55,776 nucleotides of DNA from Hydrurus foetidus (Eukaryota). The stretch covers positions 1 through 55,776 of the forward strand of contig UYFQ01000604.1 of NCBI GenBank assembly GCA_900617105.1, given 5' to 3'. Shown in pieces: positions 1,850 to 36,500 of the stretch. A program made the position numbers and the translations under genes. Under the pieces are notes generated by a model. The model saw nothing but the letters and a program-made list of their open reading frames with translations. It was not told the DNA's origin and ran no database searches. Position 1 is the first letter of the stretch, and each line of letters begins with the position of its first letter.

Positions 1850-4470
1850 TTACAAATTAGTGATGAAATTCATTGCTTCTGTAATTTCGTGATCATATTC
1901 TAGCATCGCACTATCATACTCTAACATGACATTCAGTTCAGGTATCACCCTGCTTGTCTCGCTTATTACAATGTCACTGTCATTGTTACTATTGTTGTCT
2001 GTATATTGTACTGTCCCTGTTGGAACTGATTTCATTGTACCGCATATGTTGTTTTTAGAGTACTCTTTAAATATTGGTGCTGATACATCAGAATCATCAA
2101 GTGGAACACATCCTGTACTAATAAATGACCTTTTCACCCCTTCTATAAACTTTTCTTTTTTGAATCCATCAGCTATTAGGTCAAACAGATCTTGGATACC
2201 TTGCAACATGTTAGGTTTGGGGGGTTGAAAAACAGGTAACGTACGTTCTTGTACATCTTTTGCTGCTTCCTCTTCATACAGTGTCTTGAACTTTTGAAAG
2301 CTTTCTACTATTCTAGCACCTCTTAAATTTCTTGTGTGTGCTTTGAGTGGTCCATTTACTACCAAATCCAGAACTTGTAGAACACCCGTCATGTTAGGTG
2401 GTAAACAGGCTATTTGGACATCTAATTCTTCAATGACATCATCTACATTACTTGTTTTATGACATCCACAATTGTCAAACCATATCATCAACTTCCCTAA
2501 CTTCTCTTTCAGTGGCTTTACGACTGTTTCTAACCACATAATCATTCTGATTGTGTCATTCCATGCTTTATACTGACTAGTTATTACGTGGCCTGTAACT
2601 GAATTAATGATGTAGTAACACGCATGAGTATTTGTTACGCCTTTTATTGTTAATTCTTTTGACCACTTAATTAGCTCCCAATTGTCATGGACACCAAATC
2701 CCTCATTCTTATTGTACATGTCTTTTATTACTCTCATATTAGTCTGGTCTGGTCTATCAGCTGAATTGACGGAGTGCTTGATTATAATAAATAAAGGTGC
2801 GAAATTACCATTACCACTCACCGCAACCACTGCTGTAATGCGAAGCATTGTATTAGGTGTTCCAATGTTTTGCGCTCGATTTTGATCAGGTGGGCAGTAC
2901 ATATACTCAGGTCCAATAGCATACGTAAACGCTGTTTCATCCATATTGATTGTCGTGTGTCTTTTGTGTGTCCGTAATCTCTATTCATTGTTTGCCCAAT
3001 ATTCATTATCCTTTGTATTTCCTCATCTGATGGGACGTTTTTATCGTCAGTCGTTATTTTTCTTCTCCGCATGTTTGCCCTCTTCAAAAAATTTCTCACC
3101 CAAGTTGAACTGAACTCTAACACCTTTATCTTTTCATCATTGATCCACCTGTCACTTGCTTGAACAGTCCTGGCAGCTTCCTCGATTATATTGTACGAGT
3201 ATACTACGCTCACAAGAATTCGGTGGACATTGATGCTGATGCCGTCAACCTATTATAAGGTACATGGACATTAAATTACGTTATTATCATGCTATAATAT
3301 GTTTTCAATATCAAAAAATATATTCAACATAAACAAAGCAAATCATTTTCATTATTGAACATAAATCGGATGCAATTATTAAATTAAAACGGTGCAACAT
3401 ACCAATTGTTTCTCAAATTCACATATCATTAATTTACCCCATACATCAGCTTCGAACTCAACCGATATCTTACGGCCAGAAGTTTTTTTCACAACATCTT
3501 TTTTATTAACCCATCTAACAATTGACTCTATGACTAGCTCTGAATATCTTGTGTACTTTGATAATATTTCCTTTGTGAATGTAGCGGTTTTATGTGTATC
3601 AATTTTGTATTTTGTCCCTTCCAATTCAATCCGAGCTGAAGCTACGGAATCGAATAACGCTATGACCATCAGAATCTCATGCAACTTAAATGTAACATTC
3701 TTATTCGGAAATTTTCTTAGAGACTCGACCACTGCAGGATATGATAGGACTTGACTCATTTGCAAATCGGTGCCATCCTCATCGCAATCGAAGATATTTC
3801 GACGGACAGCATCAAGCCCACCAGAGCTCCTGTATGCAGACTATTTTACTGCTGCATTGATGTATATTGTTGGTGACTCATCAGCAGCACATATAGAGCT
3901 TGATACAAACTCATATACTTGTTTCCCATATCTGTTCATCTGTCTATATCCAATTTCTTCACCCTTCTTCCTCCTTTTGTTGCTCTGCTCCGATGCTTCA
4001 TCAACATCACTTATCTCTTCGAGCCACATAACGCCATATATTTGGCTTATTGAAACATACTGCGATTTTACTTTATATGTTCTATTAAGTAATGTGTTTA
4101 CTGTCATGTAAATTTCTGTAACTAAGTAGTCCATCGTCGTTTCAGCACTAAGACCCTCTGTTTTAAATATGATGTCTGCGCCTCTGCACTTAGCTGGCAG
4201 ATCCATAAATTCATGCATCATATTCACTCCTTTAGAATGTACTGGAACTATGGCGCATCCAAACTGCTCGATTGATTTCTTGAATATTGTGAGCCCTTGA
4301 TGCAGAGCCAATTTATCGAATCGAAAGTTGTGATTCGAGATGTATTCAAAGCTTTTCAGCTCTTCACAGAGGGAATCAATCGACCACTGGCGTATTGTAG
4401 TAGGGCTAGGACGACAAACTAGAGCAATGGCGACAGAATAGGCGCACAATTCGGCTGAAAGAGATGCCAT
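1850..4470 (-). pseudogene. pogo-type (Tc1/mariner superfamily, DDE_1) DD35D transposase, disrupted
   Basis: Four minus-strand ORFs join into one protein. 4470-3841 continues in frame through a single TAG (3843-3841) into 3765-3403, then a GT-AG intron (~3402-3251), then a CENP-B-like HTH region (FSSTWVRNFLKR..RRRKIT), then a frameshift in an ACAC run near 2955. Catalytic motifs NMDET, WFDNCGCH and PPNMTGVLQVLD have 35 residues between D2 and D3. TIRs were not convincingly found. Confidence 0.85.
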
Positions 4471-8766: not shown

Positions 8767-11057
8767 TCACTTCACCAAGGGTGTCAGTTCGGTTTCATCT
8801 GTCCTCTCCTCCCCTTTGATCGATGTCTCAGACTGATTTCAAAAATGAAGAAGATCGCATTTCATTACATCGAAGAATCAAATGATCGGATAACATCCCC
8901 ATATTTCTTCTCATTCCTCTTTTCTTTTCTTTTCTTTTCGATTCTTTTCTTTTCTTTCTCTTTTCTTTTCTTTTCTTTTCTTTTCTTTTCTTCTGATCAC
9001 AGCTCACATCTAGCGAAATCCCCCTGCTTCGAAGACTGATACTGGTACTGATAGAATTAGCATTGGGCGCAATAAAGACCCAAGCTGTAACGGACGAATT
9101 CAATTACGTTACGTATTCACAGTATGAACAAAACTACCCCGAAAAAAAAGAAAATAAATAAAAAATAAAAAGAAGGCAAATGACAATTCGACTTATTAAA
9201 CGTACGTACATCTTCCGCATATACAATTTCTTACGGTGCATTCTCAATATCAGCAAAAGTTATTTGTCTTTCATTTTCCACATCTAAACTTATGAAGCTT
9301 TTATCTAACACGAAATCTTCACTCTCGCCAGTCACATCGAATGATTGGGTTGTTTCTAAAATGCTCTGGATGATTAGATTAGATTCTGCTTCAGACGTTG
9401 AAGTTGGAGTTGGTTTTCTTCTTTTCATCAGTTCCGTTGTTAGTTGGCCGCATCCCGCTTCAATATCAATTCCTAGGGTATAATACGGTACAAAAATAGT
9501 ATGGCAATAAGTACCAATATACTAGACGTAAAAGTAGCGTAGGTAGAGCGAGTGGAAGTTTAACGTAAACCGCAAAACACAATGGAATCTACGGATCCAT
9601 GATCTGCAGAATTATCTGCACACGAACGTACGTACCTCTACGTGTTCTGGGAGTGGCGGTTATACCGTATTCGCCCAGCACCCTGATGAACTCATCCACA
9701 CCGGCCTGAGGAATGTACAACACAGTACGTTAGAGTAAGTATTCATCAGTGGTAGTGTGATAAGGTGTAGTATGATGTGATGTGATGTAGTGTGATGTCG
9801 TGTAGTTCGGTGTGAAGTAGTGTAGTGGCGTGGAGGGTGTGTAGATTAACATGGTGCGATATGAAGAAATTTGCCCCCGCTTTCATCTCAGTATACTCAT
9901 TTCATTTGCTTTAATGAAGTCATTTTATATCACCTCAGCAAAACGACTAAAAAAACTGACAACAGTGACACACATAAAATCAATCTTGTAGTCTGATAGT
10001 CATAGAAAAGAAAAAGAAATAGCTGTCGTACCTTAGAAGTGGGTTTGCCTCCGTATAGAGCGGTAGGATTGAGAGGAATAACGTTTACATGGCAGTGTAT
10101 TCCCCTTAGGAGCATTCCGAGATCTCTAGCAGTCTGGACCGTGTCGGTTTCGTTTCTAATGAGAGCCCATTCGAAACTAATCCGTCTATTCGTTTTCTGC
10201 ACATAGTACCGACACGCATCTAGTAGTTCTGGGATGGGATATCGCTTGTTCACAGGCATGAGTGAACTTCTTTTCGCATCATCTGCTTGGTGAAGACTGA
10301 CGGCTAATCCAACCTGCATGTCCTCTTCTGCCAGCTTCCTGATACGAGGCGCAAGGCCAACAGTAGATATCGTGATATGACGCGCACCTATTCCTAACTC
10401 TGTATTCATTCTCCTAACAGCTTCCATGACGTTGTCGTAGTTAGCAAGTGGTTCTCCCATACCCATCATCACAACATTGCTCAGACGTTGTCCATCTCTC
10501 TTCAACTCACTAGAAAAGCGCTGCACCTGCTCGAATATCTCCGTGCTTGTGAGTTGGCGGAAAAAGCCCATTTGTCCTGTAGCGCAAAATACGCAACCCA
10601 TTGCGCATCCTGCCTGGGAAGAAATGCATGCAGTCCGCCGTCCATCTTCATATGGCATCAGAACACTCTCAATTAGTTGACCATCATGAAGCGCATATGC
10701 TCTCTTTGTTGTCCCATCTTTCGAAACCTGCTCTGATGCCATCTTTAAATCCCCGACGCTAAAGTTTTCAGTAAGCTTTGTACGGAGAGCGATCGGCAGG
10801 TCCATCATTTTGGCAAAGTCGTCGACTCCTTTCTCATAAACCCATGACCTCACTTGCCCCACCCGAAATGAGGGCTGTCCCCAACTCTTCATAGTCTGCT
10901 TTAGCTCTTCCTCAGGCACAGCATAGAAGTTTTTCAAAGCGGAAAGTTTTGTGGTTGAATGGAACTTACTCCTGACCACATTCAAAGATGCCCGCAAGGA
11001 AATAGAAATCGGAACGATCGCGCATAACGACATTGAAAAACAGATAACCCTCAACAT
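8767..11057 (-). CDS. rlmN: RlmN-family radical-SAM 23S rRNA/tRNA methyltransferase, probably plastid-targeted; exons 11057-10032, 9705-9636, 9472-9235, 9047-9008, 8832-8767
   Basis: Motifs IESVLMP, CISSQAGCAMGCVFCATG (CxxxCxxC), MGMGEP, ISTVG, VSLH, VNVIPLNP. The C-terminal RRGIDIEAGCGQL is reconstituted across frame-preserving introns. N-terminal hydrophobic signal plus Ser/Arg-rich transit-like stretch. The last two exons are less certain (alternative stop at 9231 if intron 3 is retained). Confidence 0.93.
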
Positions 11058-11607
11058 AATCTTTTCAGATCAGGGAGATATGGCCACAGATTGTGCGATT
11101 TACCTCTTGATGCACCTTTCAATCTCTCTCATCTCAAATTTCAATCTCTGAACTCTGAACGATGGATTGATGTTCTTGATTGCGTGTCCGTACTGAAGGC
11201 GCACGTACATATGGGTATCGTTGATTGGTCGGGAAAATGAACATGATAAAGATGTTCGAGAATTCGAATAAAAATTGCTCGAATTTTTATCAGATAACGC
11301 CATGTTGTCATAAATTTCTTATAGCGTCGATTGGCTTACTCGGATTCTATTAAATCGCAAAATTGCGAAAGCTATCAACTGTTGAAAAAAGAGCTGGTAA
11401 GCGCCGATGAAAATTGGCAAATAAATAGTTGCATTTTTACATTTCGATACAAAACGAAAATAGAGTAGTTTCTACGGAGCATTTTTTTGTTGGGAAATCT
11501 GCACTGGAATAAGAATGCTGTCACAAATGGCTAATGACGTGGTGAGGAATGTTCTTAGGAATCTCTTATTGCTTATTCGCATTAAAATCATTCCCAATCA
11601 TTCCCAA

Positions 11608-13517
11608 TCATTCCCAATCATTCCCAATCATTTTTGTGGATGAAATACCACCTGTTCTTACAGAAATCATAGGAGATTCCAATCTGTTCATCTGAATAGC
11701 TGCTGAATCGGATTTACTTCGATAAGAAGAAATATTCCGGGTAGCATCAAGGGATGCACTTACTGCTCTACTATAGTTACCCCTATCACTTCTTCCTGAT
11801 ATTCCAAATGAACCGAAAGAATTGACATTAGACGTCAATCTCATACTCTTCACTATCTTCTCATTTGTATTCGCATTGACATCACTGGCTGAATGCGTTC
11901 TGCTCATTTCTCTTCCGATAGGAATAGTACTCGGTCGCAATGACGAAGAACATTCCTCAGAAAAGAACGTTCCATTCTCTCCACTTTCCGCATTTTCTGT
12001 AATATCTTGAATCTTCCTGATAACGATACTACTGGGATTTGAATTATTTATTATATCACCAGGTCTTCTTGCTGTGTAGACTGATGTTGATGCTCTGTGG
12101 ATATTCATTCCGGTGCCTTCATGAGTTCCCAAGAAATTATTTTCTTTTATTGTCGTTTGTAAAGGTGCAATATTCTGAGCATTCTGCAGAATATGCCATG
12201 TAGAAGATGGCCTGTATGCAGAAGGCATGTGCATTCTATCCGTCTCAAATGCACAGTTGTTCAGCATATTATACCCCCTATTCATTTCTCTCTCCCATCG
12301 TTTATACGTAATTTTCTTCAAACTTTTTTCCTCCGCTATTAATGCGTTTAAATCGCCAGTTATATGTAACATATCGTCCATTTTTTTTGCCTTTATTCTG
12401 TTCTTAGCGCGTATGTCATTAAACATAGGGCCGTTATTGAGTCTTTCTTCATCCAATATTGTGTGATTCAGTATATTATATGTCTGTCCTTCTGAGTGGG
12501 ATAAGCTGTACAATATGAGCAAAACACCAATTTTAGTGATACGTTTGTCCCTCAGGAAATACAGAGTGATGAATGATGTTCTCAGGGGTTATTTTTGAGT
12601 ATGAAAATATGATGTTCCTGTTGAGTTGTGACGTCGACATGCATAGTTCCGTAATGAATTAGGTGATGTTAATAAAAATGTGACGGCAAATATTCAATAA
12701 ATAAGTAAATAGTGCTTACCAGTGGGGATATCTCGATGCTTGTGATACTCCTTGAATTTTCTCAAGGGCTTTATATTTGTCCAAAAACTCTTCTTCTTTC
12801 CTAAGATCATACGATTTTACTTTGATAAAATCGTAATCATGAGTTTGCCAGAACTTCTTCTCACAACCCTCTCTTATTTGCGATGCGATTCTTTCTTGTT
12901 TCGCCTCATCATCGATTTTGAATTTTCCGCTAACTACGTGGAAATCCCGACCAGAATCTCTTCCCTTTCTGATCGGAACAGGATTTTTTTTTTGAAGCTC
13001 TAATCTATCATCGTCAGGATAATGGACAGGAAGCTTCGTATGGATATCATGCTTCAGATGACTCAGTAAATGCCATTCACGACCTTTATCCTTGCGTCCC
13101 ATTGCTGCATCAGACGAAACATCTGAGTCAATTTTCTTCATTTGACCCTTATGACTAACGAAATCAAATGTCTTCCTCGAAATTTCCTCACTGCGAGCGA
13201 GAAGGTTAGCGTTCGCTGTCATCTGCATCTTTGATGCATTACTTTCCCTATCTGAGTCTCTGTAAACCATTGCAATAGGGTCAACATCTCGCTCTCTCAG
13301 CTTCCGCTGTGAAATTTTCATTGTATTGGATAAAAACTTGAGCTTGTTTAAAATACAAAAGCTCTTGGGATGAAGTTGGTGATACCTCAGCCAAGCTGAT
13401 CGTGTGACCAGGAATGAAGTCGCCAGACTTCCATGGTAGCGTTCTTCTTCCTGCATCTATCGATCTCAACATATCCCCCCAGCATTGACTGTCGGGTGGC
13501 TTCGCTGTGCCTACCAT
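11608..13517 (-). CDS. Uncharacterised protein; exons 13517-13386, 13306-12720, 12505-11608
   Basis: Three ORF segments join in frame by GT-AG introns (LAE|RKL; PHC|LSHSEG). Recurrent short aromatic-polar-hydrophobic motifs and a Ser-rich tail. Confidence 0.75.
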
Positions 13518-14442: not shown

Positions 14443-14806
14443 TGTTGTGAAAGTGGACACAAAGGTGATACGCGTACGTCTGTACGGTCGTTCACACGCT
14501 CCCCACTGCTAGACTCTCCGACTGCTTCTCTGTTGGCGCGCTCCGGCGGTCAAGATCACACGAGTTGGCTACGAGTTTTGGGTTAATTAGCACTGCCGCA
14601 ACGTAGCAGTTATCGGTGGTTGTGGTCTGAATTGCAGTGATGTTGTAGTAGTTGCAGTTGTACTTCTACTACGTGTACATCACATCGTTTGCAGTACGAG
14701 TTTGAACGTGAGTGTTCTTACGTGTACATGAAACGACATACAGATACACAATTCATATACGGAATATCACAATTCAAATTCGATTTATATAATAAGTACG
14801 ACTACA
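14443..14806 (-). repeat. 3' LTR of the copia element (364 bp)
   Basis: 14443-14717 is identical to 20340-20614. It begins TGTAGT directly after the PPT and ends CAACA. Confidence 0.93.
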
Positions 14807-15247: not shown

Positions 15248-18200
15248 TCAGGTGGTGTTGAGTAGTTGGTTTCGTTGAGCTCTGAACTGCTCTCCTTGGA
15301 GTGGTTTTGTTAGCATATCTGCTAACATGTCGGTTGTAGGTTTATATATGATGGTGATGTCTTTTTCTTTTATCCGGTCATGCAAAAAGAAATACCGGAT
15401 ATCAATATGTCTTGTACGTTCACTGTTGGACCGACCGTTATTGATGAGTTGGATGGTGGATTTGTTGTCTTGAAAAATGATGGCGCTCCTGTCTTGATAT
15501 CCTTGGTCGATGAGAAATAGTCTTGTCCATAGCACTTGATTGGCAGAGTCACTCAGTCCCACTAGCTCCGCTTCCGTGCTTGATTTGGTGGTGAGTTTCT
15601 GTGTCGAACTCTTCCCATAGATTGCTCCCTTGCCTAGCGTGATCACACTCCCCGTATGGCTCTTCATGTCTTGATGTACGCCATAAGATGCGTCTATGTA
15701 GCTCGTGACGGTGATAGGTTCGTCAATCTTCAGCGTTAGTCCAAGGTCTTTACTGCCTCGGATGTACTGGATGGTACGTTCCAATTTCTTCATATCCTCC
15801 CCCTTGGGCTTCGTTACTCTCTTTGTCAGGAATGCTACCGGCGTCAGGATATCCGGTCTTGATCTTTTACTTAAGTATAGTAGCTTGGCTGTAATAGAAT
15901 GGAAATACTCACGAGCATAAGTGGTTAACAAGGGGTCAATATTATCCGGTTTGACTAGAAATAAATCTGTCTTAGCCGGTGTGGGTGACACCCCTAGAAT
16001 CTCCTTGCAATCTTCAAGCAGCTCTTTAATAAATCCTTCCATAGTTATCCTAACTTGTCCCGCTGTTTCAAAGTTGAAAGTCATACCTATATAATTAAGA
16101 ACTTTTCCTCGATGTTTGGTTAGTCCAGGATATAGTTTTTCAATTTCATCTATCACCATATCAACATGTTCATCATCACAACAAGTTATCATCATATCAT
16201 CAACATGAATTATTAATGTAGTTTGTTTATTATTATGTTCAGTTCGATTAAACACACACATGTCATAAGCATTAGCATTATAGCCTAACACCGACAAGTC
16301 ATGTGAAATTTTATCATACCATAGTTTTGCAGATTCAACACATCCATACAATGCTTTTTTCAATTTCACAATGCATGTTCCTTTATCATTAACATATCTC
16401 ATATAAGATTTATCAATCGAAATCAACACGTCAGTTAAATATTTATTCAGTCTCATAAATACAGTGTGGCTACCTTCAAGTGGCATATCACTGTTCAAGA
16501 ATGCACCAGGAAAATCAATCGTAGCTAATGATCTATTCTCTTTGGCAGCAATCGATGCAATTATAAACACACTAGTAGTACTGACAGTAGGTGAAGATCC
16601 GTTATCATATATCTCTCTATCTTGTAAATGACCTCCTGCAACTAGTCTAGATTTTAACTTATCAAATTTACCCTCAGCTGTATACTTATCTTTTAAAAAC
16701 ATACTGCTAGTTATGATGTTGTTTCTCTGTAATGGACTAAGCGAGTTGATCAGTACTCCCTCCCACACATCTTTATCACACATCTGTTTCATTTCTTTTC
16801 TAATGGAATCTACTGCTATATCACCTAGCTTACTTATTCCATCTTTAATTGTCATATTAAAATTATAAGAGATATCATAGTTGTGTGACATGTCAGTTAT
16901 ACAACATCCTATGTTATTATTTCTTCTTCTAGTTACCCATCTACCTGGCTGATGGTTTCTAGCACTACTTCTCAAAGCAGGCTGTTCAATCTCAGGTAGT
17001 TCATCGGTAAGTACGTCATCAACAGTGTACGTATCATCTGTTACATTATCAGGTACGTACGGTGTAAGTACATCATCTTCGATATACGTGCTCTCTACTT
17101 CAGGTGTGTCATATTCTATCATAGTATCGTCATACTCAACAGATTCAATATTCACATCATCAGTCTCTAGCTGTACATCATCAAAATTATTTATTTCATC
17201 AACATCATCAATTACCTCATCAATATCATCAGTCACCTCAACGTCAGTCGGTTCATCGATGACAGGTAATTCATTTATGACAGATTCAATATGAAGTTCA
17301 TTGTTATATGAGTCATCATACATTTCATCAGAATATTCATTAACATTATTACTAACAGCTCTCTTATTATATCTATGCATTAAGTCATCATCATAGTCTA
17401 ATCCATCATCAGGTATTAGTCTTCTATTCTGTTCAAACACAGGCTGATTAGTATTGTTAATCTTATTTAATTTTCTCTTCTCTGATAACTTATTAATATA
17501 CATAATCACTTCATCAGGAACAGGTAATGGTGTAGCTTTAGTGCGTTTGACTATCTGTTCATTACTGAGTAACATATAATACCAAGATCCTTCTAAGTTG
17601 CCCGCACTCATAAGAGCTATAGCACCTGAAGTTCTTGATTTATTAGAGTTATCAATATTATCAGAATGAACTTGCACATAGTCACCAAAACCGTGTTTTA
17701 ACTCTTTGTCTACGTTAATCTTTCTACCGTAAAGTTTTTCTCTCGGGCTAGCATACTCTACGGTATTCCTGGTTGGTACCAGTACTATTCTGTTAACTGC
17801 ATATCTAACTAGCCATCCTTCTAATTTCTCAGTCAGATTATATGGTAACGTATTTACAACTGCTCTGACCTTCTCTTTAACTTGTCTTATCTTACGCTCT
17901 ACTACTGTCACCGCTTCTCCTGCACCTGACGTATCTAGAGCTGTACCTATGGATGCTAACTTAGTCTCAAACCAGATTGAGTTGATGGCTCCTTCACCAT
18001 CTACCCTCACTAGGTCTATACTAAAGCCATACTTAGTGATATGTCTTATATCGCTCTCTAAGCTAGTCCATAGTGTAAGGTTATCTCTCTTAGCTAACTT
18101 ATTAACCATAACGTATTCTAACGGTTTAACAACGGCAATTAAGAATGGGTTGCCGTTAACAAACATAAGGTCTATGTACATGATCTGATTTCTATCTTGT

Positions 18201-18640
18201 ACAATATCTAACAAAGGTTGCTCTTCTTCAATCTGTGCCTGATGGCTTGGCGTTTTCCCTTTTAGGGAGCCTAAGTCAGGACCCCAGATATCCAAAGCTC
18301 TAACTACATCTTGCGCTGTTATGTCTGATTTAACTAGTTTACCCTGTCCTATCAGCTTAACTAACTGTCCTGGACTGGCATATCCTAATTTCCTCTGATA
18401 TTCTCTAGCTAACTCAGCTTGTTTAACTTGTCTAACTGTATACTTCTTCATCTTATCATTAACTGTAGTAACTAACATTAACTTAGGCTTACTTACCATA
18501 CTGTTGAGATCGCATATATATATATTAAACTTCTTATCTCTGTTAAAATAATAACAACATCCGCCTTTGCTCACTTGCAAACTGTAAAAATCATGTTTAC
18601 TACTATATGAAACTGAGTAACAATTATTTACCATATTCAA
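15248..18640 (-). CDS. pol: Copia pol: integrase, reverse transcriptase, RNase H
   Basis: IN: YIDLMFV, VDGEG, VERKIR. RT: KSRLVAGG, DFPGAFL, LKKALYG, IHVDD. RNase H: YIDASY, SSTEAE, QDNKS, HIDIRY, ADMLTKPL. Open for 1130 codons. Confidence 0.96.
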   Translation of the reverse strand: MNMVNNCYSVSYSSKHDFYSLQVSKGGCCYYFNRDKKFNIYICDLNSMVSKPKLMLVTTVNDKMKKYTVRQVKQAELAREYQRKLGYASPGQLVKLIGQGKLVKSDITAQDVVRALDIWGPDLGSLKGKTPSHQAQIEEEQPLLDIVQDRNQIMYIDLMFVNGNPFLIAVVKPLEYVMVNKLAKRDNLTLWTSLESDIRHITKYGFSIDLVRVDGEGAINSIWFETKLASIGTALDTSGAGEAVTVVERKIRQVKEKVRAVVNTLPYNLTEKLEGWLVRYAVNRIVLVPTRNTVEYASPREKLYGRKINVDKELKHGFGDYVQVHSDNIDNSNKSRTSGAIALMSAGNLEGSWYYMLLSNEQIVKRTKATPLPVPDEVIMYINKLSEKRKLNKINNTNQPVFEQNRRLIPDDGLDYDDDLMHRYNKRAVSNNVNEYSDEMYDDSYNNELHIESVINELPVIDEPTDVEVTDDIDEVIDDVDEINNFDDVQLETDDVNIESVEYDDTMIEYDTPEVESTYIEDDVLTPYVPDNVTDDTYTVDDVLTDELPEIEQPALRSSARNHQPGRWVTRRRNNNIGCCITDMSHNYDISYNFNMTIKDGISKLGDIAVDSIRKEMKQMCDKDVWEGVLINSLSPLQRNNIITSSMFLKDKYTAEGKFDKLKSRLVAGGHLQDREIYDNGSSPTVSTTSVFIIASIAAKENRSLATIDFPGAFLNSDMPLEGSHTVFMRLNKYLTDVLISIDKSYMRYVNDKGTCIVKLKKALYGCVESAKLWYDKISHDLSVLGYNANAYDMCVFNRTEHNNKQTTLIIHVDDMMITCCDDEHVDMVIDEIEKLYPGLTKHRGKVLNYIGMTFNFETAGQVRITMEGFIKELLEDCKEILGVSPTPAKTDLFLVKPDNIDPLLTTYAREYFHSITAKLLYLSKRSRPDILTPVAFLTKRVTKPKGEDMKKLERTIQYIRGSKDLGLTLKIDEPITVTSYIDASYGVHQDMKSHTGSVITLGKGAIYGKSSTQKLTTKSSTEAELVGLSDSANQVLWTRLFLIDQGYQDRSAIIFQDNKSTIQLINNGRSNSERTRHIDIRYFFLHDRIKEKDITIIYKPTTDMLADMLTKPLQGEQFRAQRNQLLNTT

Positions 18641-19058
18641 AAGACAAAATGTTAGCTATACAACTAGGATCATAATAAACTACGCCAAAATCAGTATTCC
18701 CGCATTCTCTTATAACCATCGGCTTGCCTTTGCTATTTACTCCGTTAACTACTAAGGGTGTGTGTGTGCATGCAATGTCATAGAACAGAGTTCTAGTTCT
18801 AAACACAGATTCACCAGCACATGTGTCTAACAGGAGTTGATAGTCATGGAATACATTAACAGAATTCGATAAATCTAAACTAAATATTACTCTATCCGTT
18901 TCGGTGACATCCTCCTCTTCATCCTCTTCATCTAATTGTTTTACATATTTAATAGTGGAGAATTTTACATGTCTATCAACACTGTCACATTGCACATTCA
19001 TTTCATCACTGCTAGCTAAGTCATCATGTAAAGAATCATATAATCCACTTACTTTCCC
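18624..19058 (-). CDS. Copia aspartic protease segment of pol (in the -1 frame of gag; out of frame with IN-RT at ~18640)
   Basis: LLLDTCAGESVF active-site-like motif, then VNGVN and ANILS. No convincing independent start codon. Confidence 0.8.
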   Translation of the reverse strand, partial: GKVSGLYDSLHDDLASSDEMNVQCDSVDRHVKFSTIKYVKQLDEEDEEEDVTETDRVIFSLDLSNSVNVFHDYQLLLDTCAGESVFRTRTLFYDIACTHTPLVVNGVNSKGKPMVIRECGNTDFGVVYYDPSCIANILSFEYGK

Positions 19059-20287
19059 TTTGCAGGTGGTGGTGTGCCTTTGCCGCCCGGACTCCTGGGA
19101 CCAGCCTCCTTCCAGTACTGTTCCTCCATTGGCTGCGCTTCTTCTCTGCACTCTTGCGCGAAATGTCCGTACTTGTTGCAGTTATTGCACGGTCCTCTTT
19201 TGTATCCAAAAGGTGGTGTTTTGCTGGCAGTGTATACTGCTACTGTAGATCCTTTCTCGTTTTTGTATCCCTCAGGGGAATCGGGTCCCGGACCGTCCCT
19301 CACCCACTTCCCGTTAGGTGTACTCTTCCCGTTGCGTCCTCCCGGGTACCCTCTGCCTCCTCTTCCACCTCTTCCGTGGAATGCGAATGCATTGGCACGT
19401 TCAAATGCTGCTGCATTTGCTTGTGCTGCAACTCGACGATGAATAGGGTTGAATTTTGTTGCCTCAAAGTTGGCATCGTTGAGGTTGTTCGGCCAAGGCT
19501 TCAGTCTATTAATGTAAAAAGATTTGAACTCATCGTAATGATGGTTCAGTCCCATAGTAAATTTTATAGCCATTTGGCTTTCTGGATACATGCCATCAAT
19601 TTCATGTTGGCCAATCCTCGCGTATGCCTGCTCTATCCCAGTCAATGCTGATCTAAAGTTTATGTAATAGTTGCTGAGAGACTCATGGGAGCCCATAACT
19701 AATACGTTGTATCTCTGAATGATGTTGAATAGTTGATGGTTCTCCTCTAGTGTCGAATCTCCAATATGTGTTGATAATATTGCTTGGAGTAGCTTCCGCG
19801 GATCAAATTCAGTGACGGCTTCCTCACCGACCGGATCCTCCCGTGCTCGGATCTTGGAGCTTTCTGACATTTGTCCTAGCATAAATCCGTACAACTTTCT
19901 CTTATCATCCTTCAGTTTTGTAACTAGCTTCTTATACTCCGCGTAGTCAATCTTCCATTTCTCCTTCTCGATCGGCGTTGCATCCACTCCTGGGTCCAAC
20001 GGCACCACGTATACAGGATAATCTCCAAGAGTTCCATCTTGCCCAAAGATTAAACTGATCGTGGTGTCGTTATTGGACATTGAGTACTCCTTCAATTTGA
20101 TCATCCACTTGGTAACCGCGCCCGGGGCAATTTCCTTCCCTGGCGGTAGATCCAAGTATGCACCAATCTGAGGTATTGTCCCTCGTTGATGGTTGTTCGC
20201 TGGTGCATTTCCTCTGCCACCACGACCGAAATAACCTCGTCCACGACCTCCCTGCTTCTGTTGCTGGGGAGATCCACGTCCTTTCAT
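19049..20287 (-). CDS. gag: Copia gag (RGG-rich ends, CCHC zinc knuckle)
   Basis: First ATG after the LTR (MKGRG). Zinc knuckle CNNCNKYGHFAQEC. Capsid-like MGSHESLSNYYINF and FTMGLNHHY segments. Confidence 0.9.
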   Translation of the reverse strand: MKGRGSPQQQKQGGRGRGYFGRGGRGNAPANNHQRGTIPQIGAYLDLPPGKEIAPGAVTKWMIKLKEYSMSNNDTTISLIFGQDGTLGDYPVYVVPLDPGVDATPIEKEKWKIDYAEYKKLVTKLKDDKRKLYGFMLGQMSESSKIRAREDPVGEEAVTEFDPRKLLQAILSTHIGDSTLEENHQLFNIIQRYNVLVMGSHESLSNYYINFRSALTGIEQAYARIGQHEIDGMYPESQMAIKFTMGLNHHYDEFKSFYINRLKPWPNNLNDANFEATKFNPIHRRVAAQANAAAFERANAFAFHGRGGRGGRGYPGGRNGKSTPNGKWVRDGPGPDSPEGYKNEKGSTVAVYTASKTPPFGYKRGPCNNCNKYGHFAQECREEAQPMEEQYWKEAGPRSPGGKGTPPPAKGK

Positions 20288-20328
20288 CGTTGCAATGTTT
20301 GGTTGCAAACTTCAAATTGGAACGATGA

Positions 20329-20339
20329 AGTGCTAATTA
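20329..20339 (-). promoter_or_regulatory. Non-tRNA primer-binding site (TAATTAGCACT), complementary to LTR positions 20491-20481
   Basis: Lies directly after the LTR-terminal CA, lacks TGG, and is a perfect 11-nt reverse complement of AGTGCTAATTA inside the LTR. Confidence 0.75.
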
Positions 20340-20705
20340 TGTTGTGAAAGTGGACACAAAGGTGATACGCGTACGTCTGTACGGTCGTTCACACGCTCCC
20401 CACTGCTAGACTCTCCGACTGCTTCTCTGTTGGCGCGCTCCGGCGGTCAAGATCACACGAGTTGGCTACGAGTTTTGGGTTAATTAGCACTGCCGCAACG
20501 TAGCAGTTATCGGTGGTTGTGGTCTGAATTGCAGTGATGTTGTAGTAGTTGCAGTTGTACTTCTACTACGTGTACATCACATCGTTTGCAGTACGAGTTT
20601 GAACGTGAGTGTTCGTACGTGTACATAATTTAAACGACATACAGATAATAGCATCACAATTCATATACGGAATATCATAAGTACGATTTTATATAAGTGA
20701 TATTA
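20340..20705 (-). repeat. 5' LTR of the copia element (main part; its outermost bases lie at 24569-24573 beyond the Harbinger)
   Basis: Direct repeat of 14443-14806, interrupted at a TTA by the Harbinger. The remaining CTACA and the TSD CACAG follow the Harbinger right end. Confidence 0.92.
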
Positions 20706-20928
20706 GGCCAAACCTTATAGCGCCACGGATTACACATTTTTAATCGAAAATTCGTCATCCTGCCAACTTTCAGACCCATATAGCGCCTCGGAATCGTATT
20801 TTGAATTTCGTATTGACTGATTTCAACAATTCGTAACGAGATATGGGGCACTTCTTCGTAATCCAATTCTCGTTTTGGATGACGATATTGAGATTACATT
20901 CAAATCACATTCAAACACCAATATCTCA

Positions 20929-22832: not shown

Positions 22833-24284
22833 TTAAACACATTTCTTCTTTAACCACTTCACATCATTGATTGAATGTTTATAGGCAAAGTGATCTACCA
22901 ATTTCTTATTTAATTGACTATAAGAAGTTTCATATTCTTCCACTTCGTCTCCATGTGAAAATTCGAAAATATCTCTGTTACGTTCTACTCCTATATAACT
23001 GTAATCACTAATGGATGTTAAATTTCTAACTCTGCTCAAATGCTGACGAAAAATAAACATATCTTCTGCAGCATGTTCACCATCTCTACCAGCATAATTA
23101 ACATCTTTTTCCCAACGCACATCCAGACCATCAAATGTAAGTAATAAATTATGAAAGATACAGCAAGTGAAGAACATATTATCAACTACATCTCTTGTAT
23201 TATAAAATATAGGTACTTTTAAACAACGAAATCTACCTTTTAATGAACCAAATGTACACTCAACATCTTTCCGCACTGACTCAGCCCATTCGCTCCACAG
23301 AGCTTCTTTTTTAATAGCTGAGTGTCTCAACGGACACTGAAGACACCTCCACTTATGATACCCTCCATCAACAAGAAGATAACATCCCTTCTCCAGATAT
23401 TCTTCTCCATTTTCTTTGCACATCTTGTATCTCACATTCGAATAAAGATCTTCGTCATGAATTGCTGAAACAAATCCATCAAAACGAACAATCGTTTTGT
23501 CATTTTTCGCTCCAGGAAATCCTTTCGTAGCAGAAATAATTTTAGAGGTATGATCGACAGTAACCTCATATGATATTGTTGGGTAACCCTCCTTCCCTTT
23601 GTGTAAAGATCTATCTCCCACTGGACACCTTTCCCATCGGATATGAACACAGTCTGTACTGCCAATACATCCAGGGAAACCCAATCTATCGTAGACGCTT
23701 AAAGTCCTGTTAACCTCATCATCAGTCAAAGGTGCGTTGCAGTAAATCTCGAAATATTTCTTTGAAAAGAGAGAGCAAAAAGAGTGAAAGAAAATCCTGT
23801 TGCATTCAGCACTGATAAAGGAAAGCTCCTCAATTCCATCGAAACAATAACCTCTACCCAGAACACGTAAAACTCCAAGAATTTTAAGCTCTAACGGAGC
23901 ACCTCTTCTACCAGACGCATCTCCTCTCTCCGTAAACCAATTGTTCTCTCTCGTAAGTGCAACTATTCTTTCGAATAGAGGAAAAGGAACCCGAAAGCGA
24001 AGTCTAAATAGAACTCCACCTTTCCTATCACCAGGATCACGAGTTCTCGGATTAAGAAGCATTCTCCCCCAGGTTGAATACTCGTACATTGGACGGTCCT
24101 CTGACTTTCGCATACGGAAGACTATCATCTTATACTTGCTATCATTGACTTCCTCATCATCGTAAGGATTCATAGCTAACATTTTGCGACGTTTAGCGGA
24201 TGCCTCTTCCGCTAGATTAATTGCATACATGACCGCCGCAGAGTTAGCATACTCGTTCACCATAGAGTATTCAGAGTCGTACAT
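22833..24284 (-). CDS. PIF/Harbinger DDE nuclease (HARBI1-like transposase)
   Basis: Motifs FRLRFRV, GFPGCIGSTDCVH, GAKNDKT, LVDGGY, RKDVECTFGSLKGRF, CCIFHN. Uninterrupted 483 aa. Confidence 0.94.
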   Translation of the reverse strand: MYDSEYSMVNEYANSAAVMYAINLAEEASAKRRKMLAMNPYDDEEVNDSKYKMIVFRMRKSEDRPMYEYSTWGRMLLNPRTRDPGDRKGGVLFRLRFRVPFPLFERIVALTRENNWFTERGDASGRRGAPLELKILGVLRVLGRGYCFDGIEELSFISAECNRIFFHSFCSLFSKKYFEIYCNAPLTDDEVNRTLSVYDRLGFPGCIGSTDCVHIRWERCPVGDRSLHKGKEGYPTISYEVTVDHTSKIISATKGFPGAKNDKTIVRFDGFVSAIHDEDLYSNVRYKMCKENGEEYLEKGCYLLVDGGYHKWRCLQCPLRHSAIKKEALWSEWAESVRKDVECTFGSLKGRFRCLKVPIFYNTRDVVDNMFFTCCIFHNLLLTFDGLDVRWEKDVNYAGRDGEHAAEDMFIFRQHLSRVRNLTSISDYSYIGVERNRDIFEFSHGDEVEEYETSYSQLNKKLVDHFAYKHSINDVKWLKKKCV

Positions 24285-24842
24285 TTTGTCTGCTGAAGGT
24301 TACTTTTAACGAAGTAGAAATTGTGTCGAGGTTTGACTTATAGCCAACCTTTCGAAGACTTTCAGAAACAAGTAATTCAGAAAAATGTTTCAGTGATCCT
24401 TATAAGGGCTACAAAAAGCCAAAACGAATTTTAAAATACAGATTTTAGGATTTCGTTTCAGTGATCCTTATAAGGGTCAGCCCGGGGTCAATCACCAATA
24501 CGGATTGTTGATCACGATTTTTTTGAAATCCGTATTCCGTAATCGGTGCGCTATAAGGTTTGGCCTTACTACACACAGATCGGTCAAGATCGGATTCCAT
24601 CATTGCCAGCACAGCACGACGATGGATGATGGATGACGGCAATGGACAATGGACATGGCAGTACTAGCAAAGGTGCACTAAAAACCATATCTGTGGAGGA
24701 CTGGAGACAAGACTCCTCGAGATCACAAGCGAGGGAACAACAGTTCCATCTAAAACAGATAAAAATCCAACGTAACTTCTCTGCGTTACACTATATTCGA
24801 AGGACTCGATTGTGTCGACTTGGAATCAGCGTGACTCCCTCA

Positions 24843-26288: not shown

Positions 26289-29200
26289 TTAAGGCGACTT
26301 CATAATAAGAGCGGCATTGATGAGTGCATCCGAACTTGTGCTTTTGTATCTCGCACTTGTAGGAGAATTTGACAGATCCACGAATCCCGATTCATATGCA
26401 GGTTCTGACAGAGGTAAACTCGCTTTGGAAAAATCTTCGTAGCGCACTAAAGATGAAGCGTTCACTTTGCCAGTATAACTTTTTTGTCTGCTTAAAAATT
26501 CCAATAGCTGTGTGTTGTCTGATGCGTGTGTTTGGGTAACCATGACTTTGCCAAGTGCTATATCTGCAAGGGATGTGACTACATTTTCGGGCCCCGAACC
26601 CGTTCCGGCCACCCCTCCGGACCCTCCCCGTCCTGTTGCTTTTTGACGCCATTTATTGCTCTCAGCCAATATTCGTAAATTTGAAGCAGAGATGAGGTCA
26701 TTTGGTCCGGTGCGCTTTATTGAATTTGATCCGATCAGTTGAAGTAATTTCTGTAACGGTTTCGTGTCAGAAAACCATTTCAATCCTCCAATTGCGATTT
26801 TCTTTTCGAGCACTGCTATATCTTTCAAATCTCGTGCCAATTGTCTAAATTGAATTTGGTCCTTAAATAGGACGTTAAGAATGACTAAGATGCCATCTGC
26901 CAGTGCTTGCGTGAGCTGTGGTAAAAGTAGTAGACGCAATAAAGTCTTCAATAGCGACCGCGATATTTCTTGAAAGGCTGGGGTTGAGGTGAGTATTTTT
27001 TGCACTTCCTGACTTCGTGCTGCGAATAACAACATTCCTAAGCACAGATCGAGTAGCACCAATAGCTCTTGAGGCACCACATCAAATGTAGCGGATGAAA
27101 TAGTGAAAGGACCGGTCGTGATGGAGGAGTCGTCAGTCGCGCTTCGAGACGTGTTTACTCTGCTTTGCGACTGTCTCTTCGCGTCTAATGAGAGGGCAGC
27201 CATGCCAATGGCTACACTGTCATTCCCGACCGCTTCTCGTGTTACTTTAGAGTTGCTTGCAAACGCTGCTGCAAGTATCTCCATCAACAGAGAGAAGAAA
27301 GCTTGATTGAGCCACTCAAGCGCACCGTCCTCCACTATCAGAAGCTGTAAATTATCTGTTTTCGCTGCATTTTTAGTGTTCTGAATATCACTGTCAGCAC
27401 TGCCGCTTGTCGCTGCAAGCACAGTAAGTGCTAGTATGCACCATAGTCGTAAAGATGAGGCGGGATTGGTGTCAGTGTCTGAAAAATTGGTATTTCTTCT
27501 CTCTGATAAAGATCCGTTGTGCGACCCCGTGTGGCAACTGTCAACATTGCCAATGCTGCAACTCTCAGCATTATCCATGGAGTAGCTCTGCCCTATTACA
27601 CCCTCTGAGAACACCGCTGTGCTGGTCTTTGGATCATAAAAACTGAAGTCGGAAGGCAGCTGTATGAGAAGTTTTGTCGTGTGTGAAGTGAGTTCCGTCC
27701 CGGATGTGTGGAGATATTGCCGGCCAATAGGAGTCGATCCGATAGCAACGATAAGTCGATACAGCGACTCACACAGACACTGTGAAGCCTCTAAAAACAC
27801 CACTGTGCTATTTTTTTCCAATTTCAACTCTCCCTTGCTTGTGTCATCATTTGCCCTCCCTCTTGATCGATGGGAAGAGTGAGACAACGACACTGCCAAG
27901 GAGTCATACATCCTCGATTTGACTGGGAGAAAGCACCGCAATGCTTCTATGAACCCAACGACCCCCTCATTGCGCATACTGGTCGCAATCAACTGTGCCC
28001 AATTGCTCGTATCTGGTTCCATTCTTTCTATGCTGGCTCTCCTCTTGCACCGTTTAACAATTCCGAGGATGTCATTACGCACCAATACAGCCACGACAGA
28101 GTCCCTCGACTTCTCTGTATGGTCCTCTTTGTCCGGTCTGACGATAATGTGGGCTAGTGTGCATGCTAATGAGCTGGCACTCATAGCAGCAGTGATAGCA
28201 TATTTCATTTTGGTAGCTTGGGAAGGCTCCAATATAGAGTCGTGTGTCGTGTGTGGGGTAACAATGTTAACATCCTCAGTGCATTCAATTAAGAAATTCT
28301 CCACTTCATGCACTTTAGAGTATAAATCCGACGCGATTTCTTCGAATTTGAGTGAGTGTACGTCAATCTCCCTCACTTTTTTTCTTCGTTTGTTTTTGAG
28401 TTCACTAGGTGTTGAGCGCGCTGCATGTCTGTGTCGTCTACTGGTGGCTAATGCTGTAGCAGCTGATGCTGATCTACCCTCCTCTCTGTCCCTATCTCTA
28501 TCCCTGTCTCTTTCCCTCGCCTTTACACTGAGAGATGGAGGTGTACGTGATTTATAATGTGGTTGAGCCTCATGCAATACTGGCAACGCTTCACGGAAAA
28601 AGTCGAATTTCCGTTTAAACGTGGTCAGAAAAGTCTGATCCAACGCATCTCCAATTTCTATAGCTCCCAGGAGATCTGAAGTAATGTCGATTATAGCTTG
28701 ACTGAATCGCACAAGTTTGTCCTCTCGATCTTTAAATATCTCCACCACTTCTTGTGATGTCGCTGCATATTTCGCATCAGAAGATGTTGGTGCGTTAATA
28801 CCAACTGACCCCGAAGATTTTCCTGAATCTTTTCCAGAATATTTTGCGTACATATTGTATAGATCAGGTAGAGACTTGTCAAGACAACCCACTCCCATTG
28901 TCGCAAAGAAATTCGTTAGGAATGTTTCAACTCTCAGACGTGATGATGGTACCCAGTCCTTGAATATCAATGCGATGTAATCATAGTTAGTTGTGTTGAG
29001 GTCACAATAAAACAGCAACTTTTGGGAATTTCATAAAGCATACTTTGTATTTTGAATTCGACGAATATAGAGTGGTACGAGATGGTCTCAGTGATCATTT
29101 TATAAAACGAGAATATGATATTCCTGTTATGGTGTGGCTTTGACAATAAGTTGCTCACAGATAATCAGCAGGTTTCGTTGATCAAATTTAATGGGAGATA

Positions 29201-33584: not shown

Positions 33585-36500
33585 CATGATTATTATTACT
33601 ACTACTATTATTATCACTGTTATCATCTTTAATACGATCGCTTTTCAAATAAGCAGGACTTAATCTGGAATCCAAAGGTGCAAGATCCTTGGCAAGAAGA
33701 TCTTTTCTCCTTTTCAAATTTATCTCCGCTTGTTTCTCCACATATTCCAAACAATGCAGAGACCGTATGCCGGATATTTCCGCGCCACTTACGGCCATTT
33801 CCGGTATAATGTGTTCGTGGACATTCATACCTAAAATATTTGAGTGCGTAAATGAATTAAATCAGTTATAGCAGTTGTGTAGTATTCTGAATGATTCAAA
33901 TTATTTGTGTATCTTTTTTTGTGTCTCTAAAATTATTCTTATTTTCTCTTATTTTTTCTATCTTAGTCTTCAGTATAAACAGCACCTACACTACATCTTT
34001 ATCGATCGTGACAAATGTGCTGATGTATTCCTCCTATCGGCAAGGTCATGCAAACATAGTACACACATCTATTCTTAAGTGCGTCATTAGCGGATCAATA
34101 AAGACCAGTTATGTTACATTTTACCACAGTAACAAAACCAAATTACGGTGACAAATTGTATTCAAAAATTGAAATACATAAATTCTGGTAGTATAATCTC
34201 TCCCTCTCACCTTTTGCCAAAGAAATGGAATTACCATCTAATTTTAGGAATTCTGGAGCAATGTATTTTGTTCTTTCAATTTTTGCTTTCGACAAAATTT
34301 CAGCGTCTTTTATTACAAGATTTTTATTTCCCATTCCGCCTTTTTCAGATTTTCGATTTTTTTCTACTGGCAAATCAACAACATCTAATTTGTTCATTTT
34401 AGAAATATCATTTTCAATTTCAGGAATATTCATAATACGTCTCGGAGTATGAATAATTGTAAATTTTGAAATTATGAAATCTAATTCTCTTTGCAATATT
34501 AACCCCTCCGAATTTTGTTTTTTCACCACTACCTCATTCACTACCTTGTTTATTATCGCTGCATTCAAATTGCAGCTTTTTCTGATTACTGTTGAATACA
34601 AAGTAAGGCAATGAAACAAAAACAATTAGACATGAATGAAGTTTTAATGACTTTAGACGATTTCAATATTAGGGATTGCAATGGATAAACTATCACTTCA
34701 GAATTTTCATGACGCCCAATCGTATGATAGCATCCAGTGAGATGTCGTATCTGAATCATCTTATATTCCTTGCTGTATAACAAGTACAACGAATAGAGAT
34801 GTGATGGGAGGTTACATTTAAAATATGAAAATATAATCGTACGTGTGCTTGCAATATGACATCAAGTGAAGGAACATATGAACCATCCCATCTCCTTATC
34901 CTCCTATATCGCGTAGAAAACACGTCTGAGAATATCGGATTTTCGTCAGTAATCGTTAAATGGACTAACGTTACTGACGAAAATCCGTTATTCTCAGATG
35001 TGTTTTCTACGCGATATAGGAGGATAAGGAGAGAGGATGATTCATATGTGCCTTCACTTGATGTCATATTGCAAGCACACGTACGATAAAATTTGCACAT
35101 CTAAAATGTTACCTTACCTTACCTTACTTCACAACACATCACATCACATCACATCACATCACATCACATCACATCACATCACATCACATCACATCACATC
35201 ACATCACATCACAACATATCACATCATATCCCATCCCATCCCATCCCATCCCATCCCATCCCATCCCATCACAACACATCACATCACATCTCATCATATC
35301 ACATCACATCAAATCACATCACATCACATCATATCCCATCTCATCACATCACATCATATCACATCACATCACGTTATCTCAACTAAAAGGGAAAAGCTGT
35401 ATAAAGCAAAACAGTCATCAAAGATTTTTGATGCAGATTCAGAAGAATTAACCCTACAACCCTCAATTAATAAATCTAATAAGTAGGAAATTAATGCAAC
35501 TTTCAGTAGTTTACCAAACTTTTCACTCACATGTTTGCACAAAAACCGTAAAAAATGAGGAAAACATTTAAGAAATGAAAGTTTTGATATCTTCAAACAC
35601 GAAAATTATTTTGTGAAGTGAGGATTTTTGGACAGAAATGTGACTATTGTTGAGGTCAAAATAACAAATATTCTCACGGATTTCTCGAAGCACATTTGAT
35701 GAAGATATCAAGTATCAAACGTCACTCTAAGCGATCATTTTTGAGTACGAAAATACGACAATCCTGTTTGGTTGTGACTTCGACAATACCGTACCTGGAT
35801 TTAATAGTCGGTCAACACGGCCAAAATCATCCGGTATAATGGGCAGTTTATTTGAGATTTCATTTTTTTCAAATTCTTCAAATGCTCTCAATATTTGGAC
35901 ATTATTTTTGTCCAATGCAATTTCTTTCGCCGTGAATCCTGTCAATTATAATGGACCATTGCGGTACATTTTAAATCAATTTCAAATATTTTTACGGTGT
36001 TCGTAACGATGATTGAAATTGAGCATGTTCAAGTTGTTTTAAAGTTTGATTGAAAAATGAATAAATGCGAAGACGGTGAATAGATGAGAAAGAAAGAGGA
36101 TAGAAAAAAAAAAAGTTAAAAATGAGAGAGTAAGAACGACAGAAACTAACAGCAATCGGGAAAGAAAGATGAGGATTAATAGAGATATAAGGCTTTCGTT
36201 TTAAACGGGAAAAGTTAACGTGAATCCGGCAAAATCTAAAACTAATTCAGCAGTACAATGTACAAAAAAATCTAGGAGTACGGGATAAAAAAGAAATCAA
36301 TACAAGAATGATTCATAGAACGTATGTATTTACATGCGTACCATCTTTCGATAGAATGGATCTATCCACACCGAATAGAAGCAGAGTGTAGCATATGCGA
36401 TGGGCACTTCTGATGGGACAGTCGAGGGCTGCAAGGTGAAGGGCAGTGTAGCCTGATAGAGAGGGAAAGAGAGGAGAGTGGATTGGAGGTGCGGTGATGT

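What the first reader, a model, noticed from the sequence alone, without database searches (positions are those of the whole stretch)
20329..20491. Copia retrotransposon with a Tf1-like self-priming signature instead of a tRNA PBS
Seen: on the element strand the 5' LTR ends ...CACAACA and is followed with no spacer by TAATTAGCACT (20339-20329). There is no TGG complementary to tRNA CCA and no iMet half-tRNA site. The exact complement, AGTGCTAATTA, lies inside the LTR at 20491-20481 (14594-14584 in the 3' LTR), 152 nt from the LTR end, in an initiator-like GCAGT context. Established: S. pombe Tf1/Tf2 (Ty3/gypsy) prime reverse transcription with the first 11 nt of their own mRNA, which anneal to an 11-nt PBS abutting the LTR and are released by cleavage. 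Inference: transcription starts at A20491 and this Ty1/copia element self-primes by the same geometry. That would be a convergent tRNA-independent priming system in a stramenopile copia lineage. I cannot verify from here whether it has been described for this lineage.
Basis: partly seen in the sequence, partly recalled or inferred. Interest (0 to 1): 0.9.

Follow-up and report, generated by a model that had tools for sequence, protein, structure and literature searches.

The report
Self-priming copia retrotransposon in golden alga
This copia-type jumping gene, in what is likely a golden alga, has no tRNA-end binding site; the 11 letters after its left repeat pair exactly with a spot inside that repeat, dozens of relatives keep such a pairing with different letters, and so the group likely starts copying itself with the front end of its own RNA.

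Summary
Observation confirmed: the 11 nt directly after the 5' LTR (20339-20329) are the exact complement of LTR positions 20491-20481. Among 66 metagenomic relatives examined, 39 passed an automatic test for an LTR-end sequence pairing 9-21 nt with their own LTR (one probably chance); 11 more show it under a relaxed rule, 4 do not, 12 are 3'-end fragments. The letters differ (39 distinct 10-mers in 40), so no single tRNA, including half tRNA-Ile, explains the group. The pairing segment starts at a CA initiator-like site in 33 of 40 (6.1 expected), which supports it being the RNA's 5' end. Best reading: Tf1-like self-priming (0.85); start site, cleavage and priming are inferred, not shown. Tf1's extra 'pretzel' duplexes were not found clade-wide. 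Self-priming is already predicted for plant copia (TAR; PMC6317226), and this scan found the same signature before in diatom genomes (32 notes, at least 6 genomes). New here: a likely chrysophyte host, a subclade with short 9-11 nt pairings, and a conserved -1 gag-pol slippery site. This copy has a broken pol and no target-site duplication.

The parts
20340..20705 (-). 5' LTR (left end approximate; no TG and no target-site duplication found there)
   Evidence: contig boundary at 20705
20481..20491 (-). Predicted self-primer: first 11 nt of the predicted transcript, exact complement of the PBS
   Evidence: sequence; helix in MFE and centroid, mean pair probability 0.91; role inferred
20489..20493 (-). 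Initiator-like site with predicted +1 at A20491 (C at -1, T at +3; G instead of the clade's usual T at -2)
   Evidence: logo of relatives; start site not mapped
20329..20339 (-). Primer-binding site abutting the LTR end, no spacer
19049..20287 (-). gag ORF, 412 aa, with one CX2CX4HX4C knuckle
   Evidence: translation; no Pfam hit
19052..19058 (-). In-phase -1 slippery heptamer G GGA AAG just before the gag stop; -1 frame open into pol
   Evidence: in-phase heptamers also in L002 and L029; frameshifting inferred
15248..19058 (-). pol in copia order (protease, integrase, RT, RNase H), broken by a one-base frame shift near 18638
   Evidence: RVT_2 hit E 7e-21; motifs read; tblastn with P0001
14807..14813 (-). 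Polypurine-tract-like motif shared with relatives, directly before the 3' LTR
14443..14806 (-). 3' LTR (TG...CA)
14584..14594 (-). Copy of the 11-mer in the 3' LTR (predicted start of R at the RNA 3' end)

Best explanation
This Ty1/copia element likely primes its own reverse transcription: transcription would start at A20491 in the 5' LTR, the first 11 nt would fold onto the complementary site right after the LTR, and a cut after nt 11, probably by the element's RNase H as in Tf1, would free the 3'-OH that primes minus-strand DNA. Shown here: the exact pairing, its anchoring at the LTR end, its retention with different letters across a large related group, and an initiator-like CA at its 5' end. 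Inferred: the start site, the cut, the enzyme and the priming itself. This particular copy is probably not autonomous (broken pol).
For: (1): 67 regions (window + 66 of 75 loci; 9 left out for too little non-coding DNA) scanned over every CA with 200 dinucleotide shuffles each; 40 (window + 39 loci) reached at most 4 of 200, with 9-21 nt pairings 92-216 nt upstream. (2) The best site is the LTR end: 31 of 40 end in the 4-mer that is the reverse complement of the usual LTR start, against 168 of 1538 CA sites overall. (3) 39 distinct PBS 10-mers in 40; PBS of one element against LTR of another reached 9 nt in 18 of 1560 pairs; none has TGG in its first 8 nt. (4) CA within one base of the 5' end of the pairing segment in 33 of 40 (6.1 expected), YCA 28 (3.1 expected), control at the other end 1 of 40; the logo T-C-A(+1)-Y-T-N-T-T resembles the oomycete INR YCAYTYY (PMC3599244, passages) and the diatom TCAHW (PMC4686930, passages); length from that A is 15 in 17 of 33. 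(5) Relaxed rule on 15 non-significant loci: 11, 14 and 15 nt in three, 8-10 nt at an LTR-type end in eight. (6) The signature occurs in both main branches of the RT-RNase H tree (quick tree). (7) Helix probability over 0.5 in 36 of 39 folds from the predicted start. (8) In run X1, a diverged sister contig matches only at 20320-20347, 20474-20493 and two other short blocks, and depth peaks at the same spots (X1 may be the window's source).
Against: No start site was mapped. Six RNA reads in X21 from a related family cross the predicted +1 and run on about 92 nt upstream; in an oligo-dT library these fit a 3' LTR, but an upstream start is not excluded. Four of 15 re-examined loci show no pairing at an LTR-type end (L004, L017, L060, L073; LTR possibly cut or decayed, not verified), and 12 3'-end regions scored nothing (assumed to lack a PBS, not checked one by one). 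One significant locus (L032) is probably chance. Tf1's flanking duplexes are not conserved: 3 of 35 and 4 of 35 at p<=0.05, medians 0.48 and 0.40. One contig in X3 (depth 7.3) has an uncompensated change at 20329, though the +1 A is also unpaired in 18 of 33 relatives. The window's own context has G at -2. Overall fold z-score is only -1.03.
Confidence: 0.85

Rival explanations
1. The LTR-PBS helix is only structural or regulatory (it masks the site, or shapes the leader for packaging, dimerisation or translation), and priming uses something else.
For: Covariation proves selection on pairing, not on priming. gag ATG lies only 15-70 nt downstream in many relatives. No Tf1-type pretzel. Fungal GalEa copia have a conserved hairpin at the PBS position with no known role (PMC5445492, passages).
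Against: The helix starts at offset 0-1 from the LTR end, exactly where minus-strand priming must occur, its partner starts at an initiator-like CA (33 of 40) and its length is narrowly peaked; no other primer site is visible.
Confidence: 0.08
2. This element is primed by a half tRNA-Ile (inosine anticodon) as in plant Bianca copia, and the LTR copy is secondary.
For: Half tRNA-Ile priming is described for Bianca (92% of 260 elements; PMC6317226 passages and supplement MOESM5). The 11-mer is conserved among sister families in X1.
Against: Of 39 relatives none matches more than 6 of those 8 letters (15 match 3, 13 match 4, 10 match 5, 1 matches 6). The nearest relatives with DNA (L001, L002, L003) have other letters yet pair with their own LTR. 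A tRNA primer gives no reason to conserve the LTR 11-mer. From recalled tRNA structure, position 37 would mismatch PBS nt 2.
Confidence: 0.04
3. Chance or assembly artefact.
For: This copy has no target-site duplication and unequal U3 ends, so it may be a recombinant or a collapsed assembly of a multicopy family.
Against: PBS and LTR are contiguous in contigs of two runs; p about 5e-5 to 4e-4 for the single element; dozens of relatives show the same geometry.
Confidence: 0.01

Closest known systems
Tf1/Tf2 of Schizosaccharomyces pombe and the Tf1/sushi group (Ty3/gypsy chromoviruses)
   Same: [quoted passage not shown] The window's pairing is also 11 nt.
   Different: Other superfamily (copia order, RVT_2). 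Relatives mostly use 14-15 nt. The flanking 'pretzel' duplexes that Tf1 needs were not found clade-wide. Tf1's start site and RNase H cut are shown by experiment; here they are predicted.
TAR lineage of plant Ty1/copia (Houba, Osr-1)
   Same: Copia elements predicted to self-prime on the same criterion, 10 nt or more of LTR complementary to the region 0-5 bp after the LTR; 89% of 203 elements (PMC6317226, methods section and supplement MOESM5).
   Different: Plant hosts, single gag-pol ORF in 79%. This element sits among protist elements (Atlas neighbours commonest Bacillariophyta on 3-4 labelled members) and has split gag and pol. No TAR sequence was in hand, so kinship or convergence was not tested.
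Bianca lineage of plant Ty1/copia (half tRNA-Ile primer)
   Same: No TGG; an Ile-anticodon-like stretch in this copy's PBS; gag and pol often separate.
   Different: Relatives here do not keep the Ile-like letters, and keep LTR complementarity instead.
CoDi-like copia of diatoms and GalEa (copia branch 1)
   Same: Likely the wider group (diatom-labelled neighbours; KSRLV and RPDI-type motifs as quoted for GalEa in PMC5445492).
   Different: No primer type is given for CoDi in the passages of PMC2806351 or PMC2774666; clade membership not tested. Fungal GalEa have a local hairpin and no LTR complement.

Membership tests
Ty1/copia LTR retrotransposon | LTRs with TG...CA ends, PPT, pol order PR-IN-RT-RH, copia-type RT | tested here: met
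   3' LTR TG...CA; the 5' LTR's left end is irregular
Ty1/copia LTR retrotransposon | Target-site duplication around the insertion | tested here: not met
   the 4-6 nt 3' flank is not found within 20661-20790; copy may be recombinant or collapsed
Self-priming LTR elements (Tf1-type mechanism) | PBS next to the LTR complementary (10 nt or more) to an LTR segment, not to a tRNA 3' end | tested here: met
Self-priming LTR elements (Tf1-type mechanism) | Pairing kept through compensatory change in relatives | tested here: met
   39 of 66 loci, 39 distinct 10-mers in 40
Self-priming LTR elements (Tf1-type mechanism) | The complementary segment is the 5' end of the transcript | tested here: inconclusive
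   initiator-like CA in 33 of 40; RNA reads too few to show a start
Self-priming LTR elements (Tf1-type mechanism) | RNase H cleavage releases the primer; primer found on strong-stop DNA | not testable with these tools
   needs biochemistry; RNase H acidic motifs appear intact in the translation
Tf1/sushi group | Ty3/gypsy chromovirus RT and domain order | tested here: not met
   RVT_2 and copia order
Tf1/sushi group | Three-duplex pretzel structure around the PBS | tested here: not met
   3 of 35 and 4 of 35 flanks at p<=0.05; the window's downstream flank alone scores p 0.02 (50 shuffles); crude test
TAR (plant copia) | Grouping with TAR in an RT-RH-IN tree | not tested
   reference fasta of PMC6317226 too large to read
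Bianca / half tRNA-Ile primed copia | PBS letters conserved to match the tRNA-Ile anticodon arm across the lineage | tested here: not met
   best match 6 of 8 in 1 of 39 relatives; host tRNA not available
CoDi-like diatom copia | Grouping with named CoDi elements | not tested
   no named CoDi sequence among hits; Atlas labels only

The most novel reading that the evidence does not exclude
A large stramenopile copia lineage, spanning diatom-type and golden-alga hosts, evolved self-priming independently of Tf1 and plant TAR and does it with a single helix that begins at the host initiator. Because the self-primer can be copied into the new PBS, primer and PBS would drift together freely, which would explain why almost every family has its own letters; the window's subclade shortened the primer to 9-11 nt and added a -1 gag-pol frameshift.
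Probability: 0.45. Interest if true: 0.7.

Novelty: new variant of a known kind. Interest (0 to 1): 0.52.

Why it matters
Self-priming has been shown by experiment only in fission-yeast Tf1-type gypsy elements and predicted in one plant copia lineage. A broad protist copia group using it would show the mechanism arises repeatedly and can work with a copia RT and without Tf1's extra duplexes. It predicts, to the base, the start site and primer of each family, so it is cheap to test in transformable diatoms. It also explains why tRNA-based annotation finds no PBS in these elements, and frees them from host tRNA supply and tRNA-fragment silencing (inference).

Tried and rejected
No genome is held for the window and the window has no tRNA gene, so the PBS could not be screened against host tRNAs. 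Viral contigs held no relative. Sequencing runs: no RNA holder listed; the two RNA runs laid gave 6 and 4 partial reads and no start pile-up; no further read evidence on the start site was obtained. TATA-like box upstream of the predicted start: 3 of 39 only, rejected as a marker. Pretzel duplexes: not supported. First automatic run picked unrelated inverted repeats in L011 and L033 from chimeric 3' ends; one search used only their 5' regions. The tree is the quick version, without outgroup, 72 rows; it places the element but says nothing on convergence. Literature: searches found no paper describing self-priming in diatom or other stramenopile copia (34: two papers, 57: one paper, seen as listings or passages); the library lacks most subscription journals, GyDB and Repbase pages, and MOESM1 and MOESM3 of PMC6317226 could not be read. 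Search of this scan's notes by this element's sequence found nothing.

Full report
Observation. The element lies on the - strand from about 20705 to 14443. The two LTRs are identical over 287 nt and 95.9% alike over 341 nt, diverging at the U3 left end. The 11 nt at 20339-20329 follow the LTR's terminal CA directly and are the exact reverse complement of 20491-20481 and of 14594-14584; there are no other copies in the window. The analytic chance is 5e-5; 2 of 5000 shuffles reached 11; only 1 of 5500 internal positions, the PBS itself, has such a complement.

Anatomy. gag (20287-19049) has one CCHC knuckle; pol is in copia order with an RVT_2 match. gag ends with an in-phase slippery heptamer and pol is open in the -1 frame; in-phase heptamers also occur in L002 and L029 but not in L025 or L033, the other two split loci tested. 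pol carries a one-base frame break near 18638 relative to sibling protein P0001, and no target-site duplication was found, so this copy is probably defective or composite. A host gene in the window (9930-11069) has its nearest named relatives among chrysophytes: a cluster with Hydrurales sp. CCMP1899 at 80%, Epipyxis 75%, Mallomonas 68-71%. The host is therefore likely a golden alga; this rests on one gene.

Relatives. A profile of 62 pol proteins fetched 75 metagenomic loci (the best 80 of 364 confirmed stretches were kept). I examined 66 of them plus the window; 9 had too little non-coding DNA. The rule was blind to the answer: for every CA in the non-coding region, the longest exact complement of what follows (offset 0 or 1) within 60-260 nt upstream, against 200 dinucleotide shuffles of the same region. 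Forty of 67 regions (window + 39 loci) reached at most 4 of 200, with 9-21 nt pairings 92-216 nt upstream. One of them, L032, is probably chance. The winning CA is the LTR end: 31 of 40 have the 4-mer that mirrors the usual LTR start, against 168 of 1538 CA sites. Of the 27 that failed, 12 are 3'-end regions that I take to lack a PBS (not checked singly); the other 15 were re-run with a relaxed rule: three give 11, 14 and 15 nt, eight give 8-10 nt at an LTR-type end, and four (L004, L017, L060, L073) give nothing there. Some loci are near-duplicates (L006/L011) or close kin, so these are not 39 independent events, but 39 of 40 PBS 10-mers are distinct and the signature is spread over both main branches of a quick RT-RNase H tree. 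Crossing PBS and LTR between elements gave 9 nt or more in 18 of 1560 pairs. None has TGG in its first 8 nt.

Is the partner the RNA's 5' end? A CA lies within one base of the partner's 5' end in 33 of 40 (6.1 expected from the same LTRs), YCA in 28 (3.1 expected), and at the partner's other end in 1 of 40. Aligned on that A the consensus is T-C-A-Y-T-N-T-T, close to the oomycete INR YCAYTYY (PMC3599244, passages seen) and the proposed diatom TCAHW (PMC4686930, passages seen). The T and C lie outside the helix, so they are not forced by pairing. From that A the pairing ends at 15 nt in 17 of 33; the window's 11 is at the short end, as are its nearest DNA relatives L001, L002 and L003 (10, 11, 9 nt). 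The A itself is unpaired in 18 of 33. Folding from the predicted start puts the helix in both MFE and centroid for the window and gives probability over 0.5 in 36 of 39. Direct evidence is missing: two RNA runs gave 6 and 4 partial reads and no start pile-up; the six cross the predicted +1 from upstream, which fits a 3' LTR in an oligo-dT library but does not exclude another start. In contigs of run X1 (possibly the window's source) a diverged sister family matches only at the PBS, the 11-mer and two other short blocks; one X3 contig has an uncompensated change at 20329.

Mechanism. By analogy with Tf1, where the first 11 bases pair with the PBS and RNase H cuts between bases 11 and 12 (PMC7175516, passage seen), transcription would start at A20491, the cap-proximal 11 nt would pair with 20339-20329, and a cut would free the primer. 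Tf1 also needs two flanking duplexes (10.1101/2022.12.06.519325, passages seen); a crude test found no such duplexes clade-wide. Retroviruses copy their primer into the new PBS while Ty1 and Ty3 do not (PMC7472051, passage seen); if these elements copy it, primer and PBS would change together, which would explain the rapid turnover. That step is speculation. Half tRNA-Ile priming is real in Bianca (PMC6317226) but no relative keeps more than 6 of the window's 8 Ile-like letters; for this one family it cannot be excluded without the host tRNA.

What is known. PMC6317226 (passages, methods section 20, supplement MOESM5) predicts self-priming for plant copia TAR (89% of 203), citing Houba and Osr-1, so a self-priming copia is not new as such. 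My searches found no paper reporting it for diatom or other stramenopile copia; PMC2806351 and PMC2774666 (passages) give no primer type for CoDi; PMC5445492 (passages) reports a PBS-less fungal GalEa with a local hairpin and no LTR complement; PMC3601003 and PMC5341516 (passages) added only background. This scan's own notes report the same signature in diatom genomes (32 findings, at least 6 genomes) and none with the word chrysophyte; these are unchecked notes, read after I had reached the same view.

Verdict. A real feature with strong comparative support for Tf1-like self-priming (0.85); a new variant of a known kind; interest 0.52.

Noticed in passing
window 19052-19058 (-); L002, L029: In-phase -1 slippery heptamer just before the gag stop in three split gag/pol elements, suggesting programmed -1 frameshifting in this copia subclade; most other relatives have a single ORF.
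   Followed up: partly
window 20491-20510 (-): A short imperfect hairpin can form just upstream of and over the predicted +1; very high-depth contigs in X1 and X3 carry three changes there (20494, 20501, 20504) that rearrange but keep it, so many families or solo LTRs share this motif.
   Followed up: no
window 20639-20676 (-): Third short block conserved among diverged sister families (depth peak and joints); possible U3 promoter element.
   Followed up: no
window 14730-14806 and 20627-20705: The two LTRs differ in the U3 left end and there is no target-site duplication: recombinant element or collapsed assembly.
   Followed up: partly
window pol, integrase N-terminus (about 18200-18400, -): The usual HHCC zinc-finger residues are not evident in the translation.
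   Followed up: no
relatives: PBS helices are AT-rich (mean GC 0.19) and the two bases after the predicted primer are biased (T or C, then C), a possible cleavage-site preference; the T could extend the helix onto the LTR's last A.
   Followed up: partly
L002, L012, L027: Contigs hold tandem or circular-looking arrays of whole elements sharing one LTR (one-LTR circles or collapsed repeats).
   Followed up: no
window 22833-24299 (-) and 1850-2980 (-): DNA transposase genes (Plant_tran/DDE_Tnp_4, and DDE_1) near the element.
   Followed up: no
window 34809-35114: 144-nt inverted repeat, 91% complementary, 18-nt loop; possible MITE or foldback.
   Followed up: no
window 12573, 26097, 29079, 30745, 35719: Five dispersed 68-nt related segments and two long ORFs without Pfam hit (26289-29030, 11608-12588): probably a local gene family.
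   Followed up: no
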